A DNA stretch of 64,000 nucleotides, taken from IMG/VR virus record IMGVR_UViG_3300025132_000023, positions 32,168-96,167 of that record. One strand, given 5' to 3'. The translations under genes and the position numbers were made by a program. Positions 15,731 through 32,150 of this stretch are shown here, in pieces. The first letter of the stretch is position 1; each line of letters begins with the position of its first letter. The notes below the pieces were generated by a model. That model was not told the origin of the DNA and searched no databases. It worked only from the letters and a program-made list of their open reading frames with translations. The DNA is from a virus.

Positions 15731-16072
15731 CTAATAATATGTTTCTGCTTGTCTTCTACCTTTGCGCGGCTGTGAACAAGCGGGGGCAGTTTTACTTCCT
15801 TTTTCTTCTACACAAATAGACCAAGATTGTTGATTCCATTCTTGATATTCTTTAATATTTTGTCCACGCCTTCCTATGATTAACCCTGCTGCGCCGGGTT
15901 TTGTTATTATTCTTATCTTTTTCATCATTCTATCTACAGTTATGCTAATTAGGTGTTTTGCCATCTTCTTTCTCTCAAAGAAACTCCACAAATTACTCCT
16001 AATCCTTTTATCTCCTGAAGGCCTATTTGACCTTGGACTTCTTGTTTTTAATAATTCAAACCATTCTTCCAT
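15731..16072 (-). CDS. KH-domain (GxxG) RNA-binding protein
   Basis: IRIITKPGAAGLIIGRRGQNIKE matches the KH signature. Confidence 0.7.
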   Translation of the reverse strand: MEEWFELLKTRSPRSNRPSGDKRIRSNLWSFFERKKMAKHLISITVDRMMKKIRIITKPGAAGLIIGRRGQNIKEYQEWNQQSWSICVEEKGSKTAPACSQPRKGRRQAETYY

Positions 16073-23935: not shown

Positions 23936-24520
23936 TCTTCTGCCTCGATTAATGTCTTCATAAAGTCCTTGAAAAATTTACATTCTCCGTTTGGATGTCT
24001 TGCTGCCATAATACTCCTCCTAATTGTCGCCCGGTTTAACTTATTTAACCATTAAAACTGAAAATTTGGCCCGTCATTTATTTGCCACTTGCGATTTTTC
24101 TTTTGCTCTTTTTATCCTATTCCCAGAATAAAAATAGTTTATTGTTTATTTAACTAGATAAAAACGTATTAATCTCTTGTATCTCTTTACGCGACCCGCG
24201 ATTTATTAATAGTTAATTATGCACCTTTACCTTTAGTGCGCTCTCTCTATATGACCCATGTGCGCCTACTATTTAGAATGTGACTTGACACAATTAACAT
24301 TTTAAGCCTGTTATAACTAAACAAATCATTAGAATATTAAAAGAAAAAAATCGACCCAAAGCATATGGTCATGTAAAATACATAGACCCGTCAGGAACTT
24401 CTTCCAACAACGATAGTCGTATTCAGCGTTCAATGGAGCATAATAGTGATAGCACTTATTATTGGCCTCATTCTCTGAATACTCATCGTTTGTTTACATC
24501 GTTCCATATGGTTGTCTATT

Positions 24521-25444
24521 AGGACGTATTACGGTATTACAAGGAGTAAACGCCAGCACTTGCGCGGTGTTAATAGAACTCTATTCATAAATAGAGCCTA
24601 AGCGGTAGTTCGTAGTTAACACAGCGGCAGGGTGCTTGGTCGTTTACTTCCTTGTAATACCCAAATGTCCATATAAGACATTGCCCGATAAATGGGGATA
24701 TATGCCGTTACACTAACATGAAATGTATTCACTCCGTTGCATTGGAGAGCAAGAGTAAATTCCGGGACGTTTAGACTCTTGCTTTAGCAATCCCTGCACA
24801 TTACTCTGCTCTCCAATCCTCTACGTTTACATACATTTCATTACACTACCATATGGTTACTTAGTCATGGAGTAAGGCAAGAATGTGCGTATTCAGTCAG
24901 GCTCCTAAGAGTCTGAGTCTAAATGTGGTGAATACCGCATTCTTGCCTTACTCCGAGCAAGATAATCCCATATCGGGTTCTTTTGATTTATGGTCTGTCT
25001 CAAACAGTTCAGATGCTAATCATAAACTTTTAGCAGAGACAGTACCGCTTAGGCTGAGTCTTACGACTCCCTTATGCACGCTAACTACCTCCGGCTGTTA
25101 TCGTACCGCTAAAAGATTATGTTAACATCATCACAACTCACCAGACCTTTTCTTTTTTAATTAACAACCATATGGTTTAGTAAGTGGTTGGTTTAAGGCG
25201 GGAACCTATGTAGAATGTTAAACACGGCTGTTCTTAAGAACGAGCCTAAGCGGTAGTGTTGGAAATTCTACCGGGTTCCTCGCCTTAAGCACAACCCTAC
25301 ATAACCAGACATCGGGTAACATTCGGTTAATCCCAACATTCACTCCGTAGTATCTCCTGAACGGAACCTGTATTGACATTTAGATTAACGCTTAAGCGTT
25401 CATACTTGGTTCCCTTCAGGTTATCTCACTTCGTTCATTTAACC
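24521..25444. ncRNA. Six structured hairpin elements (E1-E6) in three convergent pairs; RNA or ssDNA structure
   Basis: Long imperfect inverted repeats with an apical mini-hairpin followed by the RRYCTAARYG motif; G-T wobbles indicate the folding strand. Confidence 0.6.
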
Positions 25445-25497
25445 TCACTACCATATGGTAGGCTGTGCTTTGCTAACAGAATGCCCGATAACGGGAC

Positions 25498-25740
25498 TTA
25501 CTTCATTGTTACGATTTTACAGCAATTACCCATTTTTACTCTTAAATCGCCTAATTCCATTCCGCAGTTATTACATATCTCAATCATTATTTTTACATCC
25601 ATTAAACCAGCACCAATAGAACGAGGAATCACATTCTTTACAATCAGGAGGGAGAGTATCTCTCATTCCTCTCCCCCCTTTTTACCAATAGCATATATTC
25701 TACAAAACTCTGCATGAGCCTTTAACAAGTTCCAACTCAT
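25498..25740 (-). CDS. Three coupled micro-ORFs: 25663-25740 (25 aa), 25580-25666 (28 aa, four Cys), 25498-25587 (29 aa, four Cys)
   Basis: Translated by hand; ATGA or 8-nt overlaps; purine-rich RBS before the second. Confidence 0.55.
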
Positions 25741-26459
25741 TCTTCTTCCCCCATTACAAGTTTAGTTGTTTCTGGGGAGCATTGATATGAAGCCTCACTA
25801 ATTATCTTCGTTTCGCAATCAACAGTATGTGTTACTTCACAAGCACTTAATTCTGTAAGGGTACTTTCTACTGCCTTGCGTATTCTTAGCATCTCTGCCA
25901 ATGGGACTTGAACAACTCTATCTTCTACTGCCTTTCTATCTGTTATTGACTCCACTTCATAAGTAATCCAAAAGGTTAGAGTGTAGGTATGACCGTAATT
26001 ATCAAGTCTTGTTAACAAAGTTACGTTATCGTCATATTTCAGCATGGCTCTACCATAAAAGGACTGTGTGCCATTAGTAGGCCCAAAGTAAATACCTAGA
26101 TATGGGCCTCTTACGCGCATCCACTTATCCATAGTCTTTGTAGTCTGAACTACGGCTACATCAGTATTAATACCATAGTCTGTCAATCCCTTCTGTGCTA
26201 GTCTTGCTTGACTACTGTAATCTAACTCCATAAGGACTTGACCGTTTTCATCAGTTACTGCATAAGTAGTGGTTGTATCGTCCGTTGATTGAAAGCCGTA
26301 TAATCTAGCATCATCCTCAGGATTATCATAGTTATAGTTACTAGTCTGTGCTATGCCTCTATCATACAACATACTCTGCACCTTATTAGGGTGAAAGTTG
26401 ACTTCTGACATATCTGTATCAAAGACTATTTCCATTTTTCTCTCATAGATAGTCATCAT
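25737..26459 (-). CDS. Hypothetical protein (240 aa) inside a TIR-flanked cassette
   Basis: ORF with GGTGA RBS. Confidence 0.8.
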   Translation of the reverse strand: MMTIYERKMEIVFDTDMSEVNFHPNKVQSMLYDRGIAQTSNYNYDNPEDDARLYGFQSTDDTTTTYAVTDENGQVLMELDYSSQARLAQKGLTDYGINTDVAVVQTTKTMDKWMRVRGPYLGIYFGPTNGTQSFYGRAMLKYDDNVTLLTRLDNYGHTYTLTFWITYEVESITDRKAVEDRVVQVPLAEMLRIRKAVESTLTELSACEVTHTVDCETKIISEASYQCSPETTKLVMGEEE

Positions 26460-26659
26460 TCATCACCTATCGCTTCAACGTAGTCTGATAGTGCAGATTG
26501 CATATCAGCCATTACTTCCTTTAGGTTATCACCAGATACTCGTAGTTTGCTAATACATAGAACAAGGGCAGACCCCGATTTCATATGCTTAACTTCTAGC
26601 ACGTATTTTGGCTCAGTTATTGGTATTGTTTCATTATTCTCGTTCATCATTTGAATCAT
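26456..26659 (-). CDS. Small hypothetical protein, probably leaderless
   Basis: ATG at 26659 coincides with the AAGAATG initiator of the cassette promoter. Confidence 0.65.
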   Translation of the reverse strand: MIQMMNENNETIPITEPKYVLEVKHMKSGSALVLCISKLRVSGDNLKEVMADMQSALSDYVEAIGDE

Positions 26660-26689
26660 TCTTATGTTGGGAGATGAATATATCAGGTG
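26657..26689 (-). promoter_or_regulatory. Cassette promoter CACCTGATATATTCA-N9-ATAAGAATG
   Basis: Same motif and spacing at 27357-27389 (-) and 27812-27844 (-); variant at 29030-29064 (+). Confidence 0.65.
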
Positions 26690-26764
26690 AGTGTTAGCAA
26701 AGCACACTACCATATGGTTTGCTTTGCGTTAAACCGGAGAGGTGGAGAGGGGCGCAAAACCCAC

Positions 26765-27304
26765 CTATTCCTCCTCATCGCCTCCGATGAAGGATACCAC
26801 AGGATAACCGTTCTCATCATAAGAACCATCCCAATGGTATTTCTTTGACATATCTCCGTTTGCGTGTGCATTGAATGCCGCATTAAGGAACAATCGCTCC
26901 TTCTTCACGCCATCCTTAGCAAAGACAGTTTCACCGTCTGTTAGGGTGTTGTAAAGAACTCCACCCGACTTACCGTGGGTTCTTGCCGTAGCATAAACCG
27001 CAGGATAAACCACATCGCGTAGGCTGATGTAAAGCGTATCATTAAGGTAAAGGTCGAAGGAAGACTTCGTTGCCGTATCCATAAGGGACTTTCGGCCCTG
27101 TCCAATGGGCGAATTTGCCACATCGGTGAATACACCTACAATGCTGTTCCAATATCTCTTACGAGTGCTTGGGTTAGCATCACCGAGAGCGAACATTGAA
27201 CGCACAATCATTGCCAAATCGCTTTGGTCTGGATTAACTGCGAACCACTCTTCAAGGTCAGTTTTCTTTGTTTCCCACTTGCTGTCATCTATTTCATTAC
27301 TCAT
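26765..27304 (-). CDS. Hypothetical protein, paralog of 29111-29620
   Basis: Shares GDxNxSTR..NSI, RxHGKSxG and WDGS with the 169-aa ORF. Confidence 0.85.
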   Translation of the reverse strand: MSNEIDDSKWETKKTDLEEWFAVNPDQSDLAMIVRSMFALGDANPSTRKRYWNSIVGVFTDVANSPIGQGRKSLMDTATKSSFDLYLNDTLYISLRDVVYPAVYATARTHGKSGGVLYNTLTDGETVFAKDGVKKERLFLNAAFNAHANGDMSKKYHWDGSYDENGYPVVSFIGGDEEE

Positions 27305-27356
27305 GTTATCAATCTCCGAAAAGGTTTGATAGGTTTGCGCCCCTAAAATTCCTCTC

Positions 27357-27389
27357 CATTATTATAATTCGGTATGAACATATGAGGTG
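27357..27389 (-). promoter_or_regulatory. Cassette promoter copy
   Basis: CACCTCATATGTTCA-N9-ATAATAATG. Confidence 0.6.
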
Positions 27390-27434
27390 TGTTTAATACA
27401 AAGTAACACACCATATGGTTTTACTTTGTGTCAA

Positions 27435-27815
27435 AAACCAGACGGGAGAATTGCTCAGATTTAAACATGGGCTAAACTACCGTGATTCCATGTCTGAGGC
27501 TTACGATTCTCCGCTAAGAGTCTGAATGGGTTTTGTTTCGTGCTTTCCTAAGGCACTCTCAGACCCGACTGAGCAAATGAAGTGGATATTGGACTCTCTT
27601 TCGATTACCAATAAAGACGCATGGGCGTTAGTTCTACATATCTTTGAGTATACAGTTCTAACCCGCGCTTACCCCGTATTACCCCGCTAAGGGTGTTGTC
27701 CTGCCTTTCCTTTGTAAGAACGACTCGGTGGCCCGCTAAGGCCCAATACGGTTGCTTTACACCCTAACGATGGTGTTATTCAGCCAATCCGTGGTGACTC
27801 GCGAAGGTCACCATT
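27435..27815 (-). ncRNA. Putative ~380-nt structured non-coding RNA
   Basis: ORF-less cassette with the cassette promoter and multiple GC-rich hairpins; strand taken from the promoter. Confidence 0.45.
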
Positions 27816-27844
27816 CTTATGATTAAGGGTGAATATATCAGGTG
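27812..27844 (-). promoter_or_regulatory. Cassette promoter copy
   Basis: CACCTGATATATTCA-N9-ATAAGAATG, identical boxes to 26657-26689. Confidence 0.65.
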
Positions 27845-27883
27845 CAATTGACACAAAGTATCACACCATATGGTTTAGTAAGT

Positions 27884-28771
27884 ATGCAAGTTAAACTTGC
27901 AAAGGGAGGGAGTTAAACTCAGGTGTAAGGGCCAAAGGCCTAATCTAAATGTTGCCTGAGTGGACTCCTCAGTTTGCAAGTTTAACGCCAGCATCTACAT
28001 AACCAGATTTGAAAATCTGGTACTGGGTTATCTTGCATCGGCTAAAGGTAGACTATGAGCAGCACGAACACTAAGGCTCGTATTCTTAGGAACACGCCTT
28101 GCTGCTACTATTCTACCTTTAGACGCTGACTAAGTAACCTTAATACCATATGGTAGTAGAAAGGTCTTTTTAGTATATTGGTGCTATAAGAATAATATAT
28201 ATGTGAGTTCAAACTCAAGCCTAAGCGTTCATATAAATTATTGTAGTTGCGTGCAACTGCCCTCTTATAGTGCGAATCTAATAAAAAGCATATAGAAGTC
28301 ATCTTTTTACGCAGTAAAACGGGGCTTATTTTTGTAGGCTTTCAAGACCCCAATTTTCTCTGGTATGGTTATCTTGCTCCGAAGTGTATTCTGTTACTTG
28401 CAGCAACCACACTCAGGCTCGTAATCTTAGGACTACGACTTGCTGCAATTAACAGCATACACTCCGTTGACTAAGTAACCTAATACCATATGGTTTGATA
28501 AAGTGGTTTGCGTTTAGACGCTAGTTTACAGACGCAAAATCTACGGTCTGGTTTAGTAACAAGAGGTCACCAAAGTGACAATCTAAATGTCTCGCCAGTT
28601 AATCAACCAGAGCGTAGAGTTTGGGGCTTAAAGTAGCGTCTAAACGCATAACCCATATCATTCCCGATAAATAGGGTATGTATTCCACATAGCGAAAGCC
28701 GAAGGAGATAAACCTATGAACACTTAGGTTCTTGTTATGACAAGCCCTATGTTCACCTCCTTCAACCTCGC
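27884..28771. ncRNA. Six structured hairpin elements (E7-E12) in three convergent pairs
   Basis: Same architecture and motif as E1-E6. Confidence 0.6.
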
Positions 28772-29029
28772 AGTTCCATCATTACCATATGGTAGTATAA
28801 TTAGAATTAGATGGGTTAATCGTATCTGTTAAAGTGTAGGATTCGGAACCCGTCCCTTGTGAATCGAATTAGCGGTCACCCGTGACCCCTGACCATTTTT
28901 CTTATTTCTCGTTTTTCCAAAACGCGATAATAACCTTAACATCCTCGCAGAAAACGGCTTGTTTTTCCTTCTCGGCCTTTCAGACCCCTGAAAAACGCTA
29001 TCATTACCATATGGTTCTGCTTTGCACGG

Positions 29030-29064
29030 AACCTCTTATATATCCGATGACTGTCCCAAGAATG
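29030..29064 (+). promoter_or_regulatory. Cassette promoter variant
   Basis: ACCTCTTATATATCC...CCAAGAATG with the same TATAT-to-ATG spacing. Confidence 0.55.
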
Positions 29065-29110
29065 CCCCCGAAACTTGGGCGCGAAAGAAAATACACATAG
29101 GTGATAAAAG

Positions 29111-31553: not shown

Positions 31554-31640
31554 TGCGGGATTCCCAAGTATGGTCAAAGGGGCCGGACTTAAGATTCGGT
31601 GCGTAGTGCTTCGGGGGTTCAAATCCCCCTCCCGCAACCA
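31554..31640 (+). tRNA. tRNA-Leu(TAA) with encoded CCA
   Basis: Acceptor stem TGCGGGA/TCCCGCA, anticodon arm CCGGA-CTTAAGA-TTCGG, long variable arm, GTTCAAATC T-loop, ACCA end. Confidence 0.92.
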
Positions 31641-31658
31641 AAATTAAAAGTGATTATT

Positions 31659-32150
31659 ATGAATATATTTATATTAGATAAAGACCCAAAGATGAGTGCA
31701 AAGATGATGGTAGATAAACACATAGTTAAGATGCCATTAGAAAGTATGCAAATGATTTCAACTTGCCTACGATTACGAGGTTTTGATGCCCCGTATCGTA
31801 GTGCTTTTATGTATCATCCTTGCACTATATGGGCAAGAGAATCAAGTCAAAACATGGCTTGGTTAGTAGAACATTTCAAGGCATTATGTGAAGAATATAC
31901 CTTACGATATGGTAAGACTCACAAGTGCGAGATTGTATTTAGTCAGTATGCTTCAGAAGTAAATGAATTAATTGACTATTTACCTGACAAAGGTTTAACA
32001 CCCTTTGTTCAAGCAATGCCCGAACCATATCAAAATAATGATGTAGTTAAGGCATATAGAACATATTATGTAAATGGCAAGAACCATATTGCAGATTGGA
32101 AGACAGAGATACCGGAGTGGTGGAATAATGAAGTGTATAAAATGTGTTAA
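31659..32150 (+). CDS. Pyrimidine-dimer DNA glycosylase-like (DenV/Pyr_excise family) protein
   Basis: MNIFILD...DKHIVKMPLESMQM...HPCTIWAR...EYTLRYGKTH pattern. Confidence 0.8.
   Translation: MNIFILDKDPKMSAKMMVDKHIVKMPLESMQMISTCLRLRGFDAPYRSAFMYHPCTIWARESSQNMAWLVEHFKALCEEYTLRYGKTHKCEIVFSQYASEVNELIDYLPDKGLTPFVQAMPEPYQNNDVVKAYRTYYVNGKNHIADWKTEIPEWWNNEVYKMC

What the first reader, a model, noticed from the sequence alone, without database searches (positions are those of the whole stretch)
24521..28771. Twelve long hairpins each presenting a mini-hairpin plus a conserved unpaired RRYCTAARYG motif
Seen: plus-strand motifs at 24594 GAGCCTAAGCGG, 24915 GAGTCTAAATGT, 25242 GAGCCTAAGCGG, 27942 AATCTAAATGT, 28217 AAGCCTAAGCGT and 28580 AATCTAAATGT. 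Minus-strand motifs lie at 24766-78 (GAGTCTAAACGT), 25044-56 (CAGCCTAAGCGG), 25375-86 (AATCTAAATGT), 28068-79 (GAGCCTTAGTGT), 28409-20 (GAGCCTGAGTGT) and 28720-31 (GAACCTAAGTGT). Each follows a 4-8 bp hairpin with an A-rich loop (CTAA, TTAA, CAAA, CATA, GTAA) and sits atop a long imperfect stem of unrelated sequence. Every element reads away from a palindrome, giving six convergent pairs. The G-T wobbles I checked fall on the motif strand, implying folding of a single strand. Inference: an undescribed structured ncRNA family (decoy, guide or ribozyme) or ssDNA recognition sites. From memory, hairpin plus TAARTG recalls MOBQ oriT nic regions, but no HUH relaxase is visible here.
Basis: partly seen in the sequence, partly recalled or inferred. 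Interest (0 to 1): 0.9.

Follow-up and report, generated by a model that had tools for sequence, protein, structure and literature searches.

The report
Hairpin RNA gene family in magrovirus
An abundant ocean virus of archaea carries twelve gene-less units that each fold into a long hairpin topped by the same small loop-plus-bulge module; they are most likely an undescribed family of small structured viral RNAs, but their expression and job are still unproven.

Summary
Folding z-scores run from -2.4 to -10.3. All twelve elements read away from an ACCATATGGT palindrome.

The motif strand folds better than its complement in 12 of 12 elements (G.U pairs 44 against 14; A.C mismatches 0).

Between three related viral lineages, the ends and the apical module stay nearly identical. 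The middle of the stem is replaced but remains paired: 44 compensated double changes in all, and for E3, 14 pairs changed on both sides with 0 of 500 shuffles as high.

No Rfam family matches, and the stems match nothing in this genome or in five other magroviruses. The genome shows no integrase, HUH transposase, relaxase or reverse transcriptase.

The units sit in a palindrome-bounded promoter-cassette array. Other agents in this scan described that array on other magrovirus genomes and compared it with T4 PeSL cassettes. A manA-like RNA lies in the same array.

Best reading (about 0.5): independently transcribed small RNAs whose apical module is a docking site and whose stem needs only to be double-stranded.

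The parts
24533..24660 (+). E1 hairpin element (bulge GCCUAAGCGGUA, loop CAUA)
   Evidence: z -7.7
24717..24842 (-). E2 hairpin element (bulge GAGUCUAAACG, loop UAAA)
   Evidence: z -7.8
24868..24955 (+). E3 hairpin element (bulge AGUCUAAAUGU, loop CUAA); mid-stem replaced in two relatives but still paired
   Evidence: (z -10.3)
25010..25148 (-). E4 hairpin element, outlier with a large internal loop (bulge AGCCUAAGCGG, loop GUAA)
   Evidence: z -2.4
25186..25300 (+). E5 hairpin element (bulge AGCCUAAGCG, loop UUAA); its only 4 differences from the L010 strain are 2 compensated pairs
   Evidence: z -6.9
25345..25425 (-). E6 hairpin element (bulge UAAUCUAAAUG, loop UUAA)
   Evidence: z -4.7
27884..27992 (+). 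E7 hairpin element (bulge AAUCUAAAUGU, loop AAA)
   Evidence: z -5.6
28031..28139 (-). E8 hairpin element (bulge AGCCUUAGUGU, loop CUAA); replaced by an unrelated hairpin with the same kind of apical module in three contigs
   Evidence: (z -3.9)
28164..28287 (+). E9 hairpin element (bulge AGCCUAAGCGUU, loop CAAA/UCAA)
   Evidence: z -3.4
28368..28480 (-). E10 hairpin element (bulge AGCCUGAGUGU, loop CUAA)
   Evidence: z -6.3
28505..28649 (+). E11 hairpin element (bulge AAUCUAAAUGU, loop CAAA)
   Evidence: z -9.0
28694..28772 (-). E12 hairpin element (bulge AACCUAAGUGU, loop CAUA)
   Evidence: z -5.0
24503..24512 (.). Palindrome TCCATATGGT, left boundary of the E1/E2 unit
24848..24857 (.). Palindrome ACCATATGGT between E2 and E3 (divergent start point)
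25167..25176 (.). Palindrome ACCATATGGT between E4 and E5
25450..25459 (.). Palindrome ACCATATGGT between E6 and the two-gene cassette
27865..27874 (.). Palindrome ACCATATGGT between the manA-like RNA cassette and E7
28145..28154 (.). Palindrome ACCATATGGT between E8 and E9
28485..28494 (.). Palindrome ACCATATGGT between E10 and E11
28784..28793 (.). Palindrome ACCATATGGT, right boundary of E12
24684..24697 (.). Central GC-clamped mini-hairpin CCCGATAAATGGGG between convergent E1 and E2 (inferred shared 3'-end signal)
   Evidence: read directly; inference
24967..24977 (.). Central CCCATATCGGG between E3 and E4, followed by TTCTTTTGATTT
   Evidence: inference
25304..25317 (.). Central ACCAGACATCGGGT between E5 and E6
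   Evidence: inference
28002..28021 (.). Central perfect hairpin ACCAGATTT-GAAA-ATCTGGT between E7 and E8
28321..28351 (.). Central GGGGC...GACCCC hairpin with T-runs between E9 and E10
   Evidence: inference
28663..28676 (.). Central CCCGATAAATAGGG between E11 and E12
   Evidence: inference
27579..27813 (-). Neighbouring manA-like RNA in its own cassette (context; possible partner)
   Evidence: RF01745, 46.4 bits, gathering score 55.2, E 7e-10

Best explanation
The twelve elements are genes for small structured RNAs of about 80-145 nt. They occupy non-coding slots in the magrovirus array of palindrome-bounded promoter cassettes.

Proposed route: each ACCATATGGT palindrome lies in a compact divergent promoter. 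An A/T-rich TATA-like box directly upstream of the palindrome fires across it, so the RNA would begin about 15 nt past the palindrome centre, near where the strong stem starts in roughly half of the elements. Two such RNAs converge on a short GC-clamped hairpin in the middle of each unit, which probably marks their 3' ends.

Each RNA folds into a rigid, imperfect duplex rod. Its tip carries a constant module: a 4-7 bp helix with an A-rich tetraloop, then an 11-nt single-stranded bulge (A-R-Y-C-U-A-A-R-Y-G-U) on the 3' side. That module is the working part, a docking site for a protein or RNA partner. The stem only has to be double-stranded. That would explain why its sequence is free and differs between copies, which would also keep twelve copies from recombining or mispairing.

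Twelve copies of one site suggest a dose-dependent role such as titrating or scaffolding a host or viral factor.

Shown: the fold, the module, its conservation, compensatory change, the strand asymmetry, spread of palindrome pairs at unit spacing to 22 further viral contigs (hairpins with the module checked in a subset), and absence from Rfam.

Inferred: transcription, RNA ends, the partner and the function.
For: The structure exceeds chance in all 12 elements. The apical architecture is uniform.

The motif-defined strand is the more stable one in 12 of 12, with G.U 44 against 14 and A.C 0. This asymmetry flips every ~150 nt with element orientation. That fits short alternating transcription units, not replication.

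Across orthologues in three lineages there are 44 compensated double changes, 17 single changes that keep the pair, and 22 broken cells. For E3, 14 of 41 pairs changed on both sides, 0 of 500 shuffles reached that, and slid controls gave 0-3. E5's only four differences form two compensated pairs. The ends and apical module are nearly invariant while 20-35 nt per arm is replaced.

Neighbouring slots in the same array are real transcription units. ACCT+TATA motifs lie 22-26 nt before the start of the manA-like RNA and before the ATG of the small protein (about 68 aa) and the 179-aa protein.

Hairpin-type palindrome flanks from many contigs show an upstream consensus A-N-TATAC-N-ACCAT. TAT[AC] is present in 14 of 44 of them against 34 of 401 other flanks.

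26 loci from 22 IMG/VR contigs of 4-367 kb (most 35-99 kb) carry palindrome pairs at unit spacing. Hairpins with a loop-plus-bulge module recur among them.

No Rfam family matches. The magrovirus papers held in the library do not mention these elements.
Against: The predicted start sites rest on a weak, degenerate A/T box, and E1 and E6 lack a good one. Only some elements are followed by an oligo-T run.

The outer basal pairing (GGUUACUUAG with CAAGAUAACC) would lie partly upstream of the predicted start, which the model does not explain.

G.T pairs and the G>C skew could come from a strand-specific mutation bias instead of selection on RNA.

In distant relatives the bulge sequence differs (AAGUGAAGCG, UAGAAAUACG), so one shared partner is not assured.

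No partner has been identified. The 179-aa protein embedded in the array has no recognisable fold relative.
Confidence: 0.5

Rival explanations
1. The hairpins act as DNA. Single-stranded or cruciform hairpins in the control region are recognised by a replication, priming, packaging or recombination protein through the tip module.
For: The array sits at the strand switch and at the cumulative GC-skew minimum. It is dense in exact palindromes. Whole units have been swapped and reordered between strains at the palindromes. G.T pairs also stabilise DNA hairpins. There is no RNA evidence.
Against: Elements alternate strand every ~150 nt, which no single origin's lagging-strand template can explain. 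Ten or more origins in 5 kb is implausible. No tyrosine recombinase, Y1-HUH transposase, relaxase or reverse transcriptase is detectable in the 96-kb genome. Neighbouring slots are promoter-driven RNA or protein genes. TATA-like boxes are enriched upstream of hairpin-type flanks.
Confidence: 0.2
2. They are passive parts of the cassette system: stop-and-protect stem-loops or insulators that end the transcripts fired outward from each palindrome promoter, like the stem-loops of T4 PeSL elements, with no function of their own.
For: An earlier follow-up in this scan read a 190-nt two-hairpin stretch in another magrovirus this way (e1-5359082). E6 lies directly downstream of the minus-strand two-gene cassette. 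The convergent layout with a central hairpin looks like back-to-back terminators.
Against: Six consecutive units hold no gene to terminate or protect. A specific loop-plus-bulge module is conserved across twelve unrelated stems and across lineages, which a terminator does not need. Stems of 35-50 bp are far more than archaeal termination requires; from general knowledge, that relies on oligo-T runs.
Confidence: 0.12
3. They are guide or antisense RNAs, or hairpin precursors of small RNAs, and the variable mid-stem is the specificity part aimed at host or rival-virus nucleic acid.
For: The mid-stem is the fastest-changing part and is replaced wholesale between strains whose neighbouring elements are 98-100% identical. 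One whole element is swapped.
Against: No stem arm matches the rest of this genome; the best hit is 17 of 18 at E 0.03, which is chance for 12 queries. Five other complete or near-complete magroviruses matched only at the palindromes, and only the left cluster E1-E6 was queried. Changes are double substitutions that keep pairing, as expected if only duplex shape matters. Host genomes could not be searched: the genome scan returned no Poseidoniales handle.
Confidence: 0.08
4. They are selfish miniature mobile elements (MITE, PATE or REPIN-like) that insert at CATATG.
For: Presence, absence and replacement vary between strains. Each element ends in a degenerate half-palindrome (GGTTA...TAACC(C)ATAT).
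Against: Copies share no stem sequence, unlike any transposing family. None lies outside the array. No transposase is detectable.
Confidence: 0.04

Closest known systems
PeSL (promoter-early stem-loop) cassettes of T4-type phages
   Same: Short self-contained units are bounded by one repeated regulatory sequence. Related viruses gain, lose, swap and reorder units at that sequence. The array sits in a plastic accessory region.
   Different: Here the boundary is an exact 10-bp palindrome in an archaeal-type promoter context. Twelve of the slots hold no gene, only a long hairpin with a conserved tip module.
manA RNA (Rfam RF01745; Weinberg et al. 2010, PMC2864571)
   Same: A marine-virus structured RNA in the same array. 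It has its own promoter and hairpin loops carrying a recurring pentamer.
   Different: The hairpin elements do not match the manA model and have a single-rod architecture. The manA-like RNA is a neighbour, not a member.
Small SRP (4.5S) RNA, and sponge RNAs such as CsrB/RsmZ (from general knowledge)
   Same: 4.5S RNA is a long imperfect hairpin whose conserved tip (tetraloop plus asymmetric loops) is the protein-binding part while the lower stem varies. CsrB-type RNAs present many copies of one short exposed motif to titrate a protein.
   Different: No sequence or model similarity. Here the copies are separate genes. No partner is known.
phi29 pRNA (from general knowledge)
   Same: About 120 nt, with a long helix formed by the 5' and 3' ends, and a hairpin loop and a bulge loop near the tip that pair between molecules.
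   Different: Loop-bulge complementarity holds only in E8. There are twelve different genes. No Rfam match.
Integron attC sites
   Same: Imperfect hairpins of 60-140 nt conserved in structure but not sequence. One strand is functional. GTT/AAC-like bases lie at the stem base. They occur in cassette arrays.
   Different: No integrase. Orientation alternates. The conserved part is at the tip, not the base. Most units carry no cargo.

Membership tests
Any Rfam 15 family | Covariance-model match at or near the gathering score | tested here: not met
   Gathering thresholds over the whole window found only tRNA. At E<=1 over 24300-29100 the only hit on a hairpin was MIR5020 at 25.9 bits (gathering score 73), E 0.05, a generic long-hairpin hit.
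MOBQ-type oriT / nic site | A cognate relaxase (MobA/MobL or Relaxase family) in the same replicon | tested here: not met
   PF03389 and PF03432: no match at E<=0.01 in the 96-kb genome; control genomes responded.
Integron attC | Adjacent tyrosine integrase (IntI) | tested here: not met
   PF00589: no match in the genome; 14 of 14 controls positive.
Integron attC | All sites in one orientation, with the conserved core at the stem base and a variable tip | tested here: not met
   Orientation alternates in six convergent pairs. The most conserved part across paralogues is the tip.
IS200/IS605 PATE or REP/RAYT elements | Y1 HUH transposase present, and copies similar in sequence | tested here: not met
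   PF01797: no match. Stems are unrelated between copies apart from one recent pair, E8/E10.
Retron / reverse-transcriptase-associated ncRNA | Reverse transcriptase gene | tested here: not met
   PF00078: no match.
PeSL-like promoter cassette array | Units bounded by one repeated regulatory sequence that includes a promoter | tested here: met
   12 palindromes bound the units. ACCT+TATA motifs lie 22-26 nt before the manA-like RNA start and before gene ATGs.
PeSL-like promoter cassette array | Units gained, lost, replaced or reordered between relatives at the boundary | tested here: met
   E8 is replaced in L010, L046 and L047. The E3/E4 unit lies next to the E11/E12 side in L009 and L045.
11-nt GAAA tetraloop receptor (CCUAAG / UAUGG) | UAUGG strand opposite CCUAAG in the same helix, and a GAAA loop | tested here: not met
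   Nothing lies opposite the bulge in 10 of 12 elements. The 5' strands read UAGAAC, CAGGGA and so on. Only E4 has a GNRA loop.
Structured ncRNA (general) | Compensatory base changes between homologues | tested here: met
   44 double changes over nine orthologue groups. E3: 0 of 500 shuffles as high.
Structured ncRNA (general) | Transcript detected on the predicted strand | not testable with these tools

The most novel reading that the evidence does not exclude
The hairpin RNAs are partners of the manA-like RNA encoded in the same array.

Their exposed CUAAG occurs 8 times in the twelve tips, at 5.9 per kb against a background of 1.15. It would pair loop-to-loop with the exact complement CUUAG. 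The manA-like RNA strand carries CUUAG 4 times here, read as hairpin loops on the sequence. It carries CUUAG 1-5 times in each of five lineages, with CUAAG almost absent.

A 2026 preprint shows that manA RNAs assemble through kissing loops into RNA-only cages of up to 60 subunits (10.64898/2026.07.01.735769). The hairpin rods could therefore be cargo, spokes or regulators of a virus-made RNA assembly.

Weak point: in three of the five lineages the hairpin tips carry CUAAA or UUAAG, which pair less well.
Probability: 0.08. Interest if true: 0.9.

Novelty: new variant of a known kind. Interest (0 to 1): 0.6.

Why it matters
Magroviruses are among the most abundant viruses of the surface ocean, their hosts are uncultured, and no non-coding RNA biology is described for them in the papers I could search. 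If these twelve units are expressed, the virus gives about 2 kb of its control region to a private, fast-turning-over repertoire of rod-shaped RNAs that all show one docking module. These lie beside a relative of an RNA now known to build RNA-only cages. That would give a concrete, synthesisable set of RNAs for asking how an archaeal virus uses structured RNA against or with its host. It would also add a new RNA family for marine metatranscriptome annotation.

Tried and rejected
**Covariance model.** Not built. MAFFT right-justified mini-hairpins of different length (alignment A2), so no single bracket string fitted. Only 8 apical windows shared one architecture. I used a descriptor scan and orthologue alignments instead.

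**Host target search.** The one genome-contig scan, with the viral PolB, returned Woesearchaeota, Methanocella and an unnamed archaeon, but no Poseidoniales. Stems were therefore never compared with host genomes.

**Stem targets in viruses.** No match in the rest of this genome. For the left cluster E1-E6, the only part queried, no match in five other magroviruses.

**179-aa protein inside the array.**
- 47 cluster representatives were found, and the AlphaFold2 model has pLDDT 92.
- Foldseek against PDB gave nothing at E<=0.001.
- VIA-wide gave best Z 6.7, on the first 69 residues only, a generic helical bundle.
- The protein atlas gave 0.81, which is chance level.
- Pfam and PHROGs gave nothing.

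**Controls that did not work.** The orientation control in relatives (modules reading away from against toward the palindrome, 43 against 31 at score 12) is contaminated by the convergent partner and is not used. The G.U replication in relatives (28 of 35) is biased by how modules were chosen and is quoted only as consistent. The stem-start distribution was uninformative.

**Ideas dropped.**
- 11-nt tetraloop receptor in cis: no UAUGG lies opposite the bulge.
- T-box-like Leu codon display (CUA, CUU, CUG): not kept in distant relatives.
- Bulge-helix-bulge splice sites: the helix length is wrong.
- C/D and H/ACA guides: no boxes and no Rfam hit.
- Short ORFs: changes are pair-wise, not codon-wise.

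**Metagenome scan.** It added only strains of the three lineages already known.

Full report
**Where this is.** The window is the right two-thirds of a 96,167-bp IMG/VR virus record that CheckV rates complete. Minus-strand genes of mostly unknown function run up to about 24 kb. Plus-strand replication genes (ribonucleotide reductase, ATP-dependent ligase, family-B polymerase, primase) run from about 29 kb. Earlier notes of this scan call the genome a magrovirus, a tailed virus of marine group II archaea. Its size, gene set and relatives fit that. The finding lies exactly at the strand switch and at the cumulative GC-skew minimum.

- All twelve motif sites exist at the stated places and strands.
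- The bare 9-mer RYCTNARYG is not unusual across the window (36 found, 25.9 expected). But half of all copies lie in these 4.3 kb, and twelve occupy one structural position.
- When the motif is kept unpaired, ten of twelve elements show the same tip. The 5' strand of the long stem runs without a break into a 4-7 bp mini-hairpin closed by an A-rich 3-4 nt loop. The 3' strand then carries a 10-12 nt bulge, A-R-Y-C-U-N-A-R-Y-G-(U), before rejoining the long stem.
- So the 'unpaired motif' is better described as an 11-nt 3' bulge just below a capped helix. E4 is an outlier with a large internal loop.
- The long stems hold 35-50 pairs with bulges and mismatches. They fold far better than dinucleotide shuffles, with z from -2.4 to -10.3 and no shuffle as good in ten of twelve.
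- ACCATATGGT is found eleven times exactly in the whole genome, only between 24848 and 29749 of the window, plus one 9/10 copy at 24503.
- Each element begins at a palindrome and reads away from it, so two elements converge inside each 280-345 bp unit.

**One strand is the working strand.**
- The strand of each element was fixed by the motif alone. That strand is still the more stable one in 12 of 12.
- It has 44 G.U pairs against 14 on the complement.
- Its single mismatches include no A.C, which would be G.U on the other strand.
- The asymmetry changes sign every ~150 nt with element orientation. A replication-linked bias cannot do this; short alternating transcription units, or selection on a folded single strand, can.
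- One oddity remains: most single mismatches are purine-purine (G.G 10, A.G 8).

**The structure is conserved and the stem sequence is not.** Two other lineages carry orthologues.
- IMGVR_UViG_3300025110_000009 (L005, L006, L010, L048) has flanks 96-98% identical to the window.
- IMGVR_UViG_3300030333_001969 (L009, L038) is further away.
- Against the first lineage, identity per element is uneven. E1 and E10 are 100% identical. E3 is 81%, E9 89% and E12 90%. E8 is replaced by an unrelated hairpin that still has a mini-hairpin followed by AUCUAAAUGU.
- The same replacement is seen in two further metagenome contigs from other samples, so it is not an assembly error.
- Alignments of E3 and E11 show basal stems and apical modules that are almost invariant. 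In contrast, 20-35 nt on each arm are replaced yet still pair.
- Over nine orthologue groups I count 44 compensated double changes, 17 single changes that keep a pair, and 22 broken cells. Many of the broken cells lie in poorly alignable mid-stems.
- For E3, 14 of 41 pairs changed on both sides and none on one side only. No shuffle in 500 reached this, and slid controls gave 0-3.
- E5 differs from its orthologue at four bases, which form two compensated pairs.
- Neighbours are identical, so the divergent alleles were most simply imported by recombination, not evolved in place.
- The lesson for function is that the mid-stem is constrained to be double-stranded and not to any sequence.

**The family is wider.**
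- A pattern of two palindromes 270-300 nt apart hits 26 loci in 22 IMG/VR contigs of 4-367 kb, most of them 35-99 kb.
- A motif-blind descriptor (mini-hairpin, 9-13 nt 3' bulge, paired lower stem) anchored at their palindromes recovers many hairpins. Close lineages show AGCCUAAGYG or AAUCUAAAUG bulges. Distant ones show loops GCAUUAAGC or CGCUAAGU with bulges such as AAGUGAAGCG or UAGAAAUACG.
- The common denominator is an exposed YUAAR-type sequence with two adenines. Hairpin repertoires are otherwise private to each lineage.

**Context: a promoter-cassette array.**
- Between the two hairpin clusters lie three other slots. One holds two genes: a 240-aa protein, and a small protein annotated as an 85-aa ORF (26456-26713) whose likely start is the ATG at about 26656, giving about 68 aa. 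One holds a 179-aa gene. One is a 445-nt non-coding slot.
- The non-coding slot matches Rfam manA on the minus strand (27579-27813; 46.4 bits, below the gathering score of 55.2, E 7e-10).
- A motif ACCT plus TATA box lies 22-26 nt before the manA-like RNA start and before the ATG of the small and 179-aa proteins. The same motif follows the 29006 palindrome. These are archaeal-type promoters giving leaderless or near-leaderless RNAs.
- Other follow-ups in this scan described the same palindrome-bounded promoter cassettes on other magrovirus genomes and compared them with T4 PeSL cassettes. My strain comparisons agree: whole units are replaced or reordered at the palindromes.
- What is specific to this finding is that twelve slots hold only a hairpin.

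**Are the hairpins transcribed?**
- Hairpin slots lack the ACCT+TATA motif.
- In 44 hairpin-type flanks from many contigs, the bases just upstream of the palindrome have the consensus A-N-TATAC-N-ACCAT. TAT[AC] occurs there in 32% of them against 8.5% of other flanks.
- A TATA box centred about 10 nt before the palindrome centre would start RNA about 15 nt past it. That is where the strong stem begins in E3, E5, E7, E9 and E11.
- Between convergent elements there is always a short GC-clamped hairpin (CCCGATAAATGGGG, CCCATATCGGG, ACCAGATTTGAAAATCTGGT and similar). A like one follows the two-gene cassette, so it probably marks 3' ends.
- These steps are inference.

**What they are not.**
- No Rfam family matches, including self-cleaving ribozymes, C/D or H/ACA guides, or tRNA-like RNAs.
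- The stems match nothing else in this genome. For the left cluster, they match nothing outside the palindromes in five other magroviruses.
- The genome has no detectable tyrosine recombinase, Y1-HUH transposase, reverse transcriptase or relaxase. Integron attC, IS200/IS605-type, retron and oriT readings therefore each fail a defining feature.
- The CCUAAG in five bulges is one strand of the classical 11-nt tetraloop receptor, but the partner strand is not opposite it.

**Most likely mechanism (about 0.5).** These are small RNA genes. The tip module is a docking site, and the duplex is a sequence-free rod. Keeping the rods different lets the virus hold twelve copies of the site without recombination between them. 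Many copies of one site point to titration or scaffolding of a factor.
- One candidate partner is the viral KH-domain protein (15731-16072; KH_2 24.5 bits, over the cut-off). This is untested.
- The other is the manA-like RNA. Its strand carries CUUAG four times, read as hairpin loops on the sequence, and no CUAAG. The hairpin tips expose the complement CUAAG eight times.
- The same bias holds for the manA-like RNA in five lineages, but the hairpin side keeps CUAAG in only two.
- manA RNAs were recently reported to assemble through kissing loops into RNA-only cages. I rate this link at about 0.08.

**Rivals.**
- Single-stranded or cruciform DNA sites: 0.2.
- Passive terminator or insulator stem-loops of the cassette system, as an earlier follow-up concluded for a two-hairpin stretch elsewhere: 0.12.
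- Guide or antisense RNAs: 0.08.
- Miniature mobile elements: 0.04.

**Verdict.** This is a real, well-defined and apparently undescribed family of structured elements in abundant ocean viruses, most likely RNA genes. It sits inside a cassette system that this scan has already described on other genomes. Function and expression are open.

Noticed in passing
window 27579-27813 (-), cassette 27420-27864: A manA-like structured RNA (RF01745, 46.4 bits, below the gathering score of 55.2, E 7e-10) with its own ACCTGATATATTC promoter about 22-24 nt upstream. It is conserved in five lineages. Its strand carries CUUAG four times, read as hairpin loops on the sequence. Earlier follow-ups in this scan reported manA-like RNAs in other magroviruses.
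   Followed up: partly
window 15731-16072 (-): A 113-aa protein with a type II KH domain (PF07650, 24.5 bits, cut-off 22). It is the only recognisable RNA or single-strand-binding protein I saw in the window.
   Followed up: no
window 26765-27304 (-): A 179-aa protein encoded inside the array. It is conserved (57% identity to L007; 47 cluster representatives) and confidently modelled (pLDDT 92, helical with a small beta hairpin). It has no Pfam, PHROG, Foldseek or convincing VIA match.
   Followed up: yes
window 26688, 27388, 27843 (-), 29031 (+): A recurrent promoter motif, ACCT plus a TATA box, lies 22-26 nt before an ATG or RNA start. Each copy sits 15-26 nt from an ACCATATGGT palindrome with a CTTTG box between. 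Gene-type cassettes carry matching 'private' inverted CTTTG-box repeats at both ends.
   Followed up: partly
window 31554-31640 (+) and 31599-32150 (+): A tRNA-Leu(UAA) gene whose 3' part overlaps the called start (GTG) of an ORF with a pyrimidine-dimer DNA glycosylase domain (PF03013, E 7e-11). The real ORF start is probably further downstream.
   Followed up: no
window 28005-28143 against L010, L046, L047: One hairpin slot (E8) holds a different, unrelated hairpin in three contigs from different samples, while both flanks are 96-98% identical. This is a clean example of slot replacement.
   Followed up: yes
the twelve hairpins, sense strand: Single mismatches in the stems are almost all purine-purine (G.G 10, A.G 8, A.A 2, against U.U 1, C.U 2, A.C 0). 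Selection for pairing alone does not explain this.
   Followed up: no
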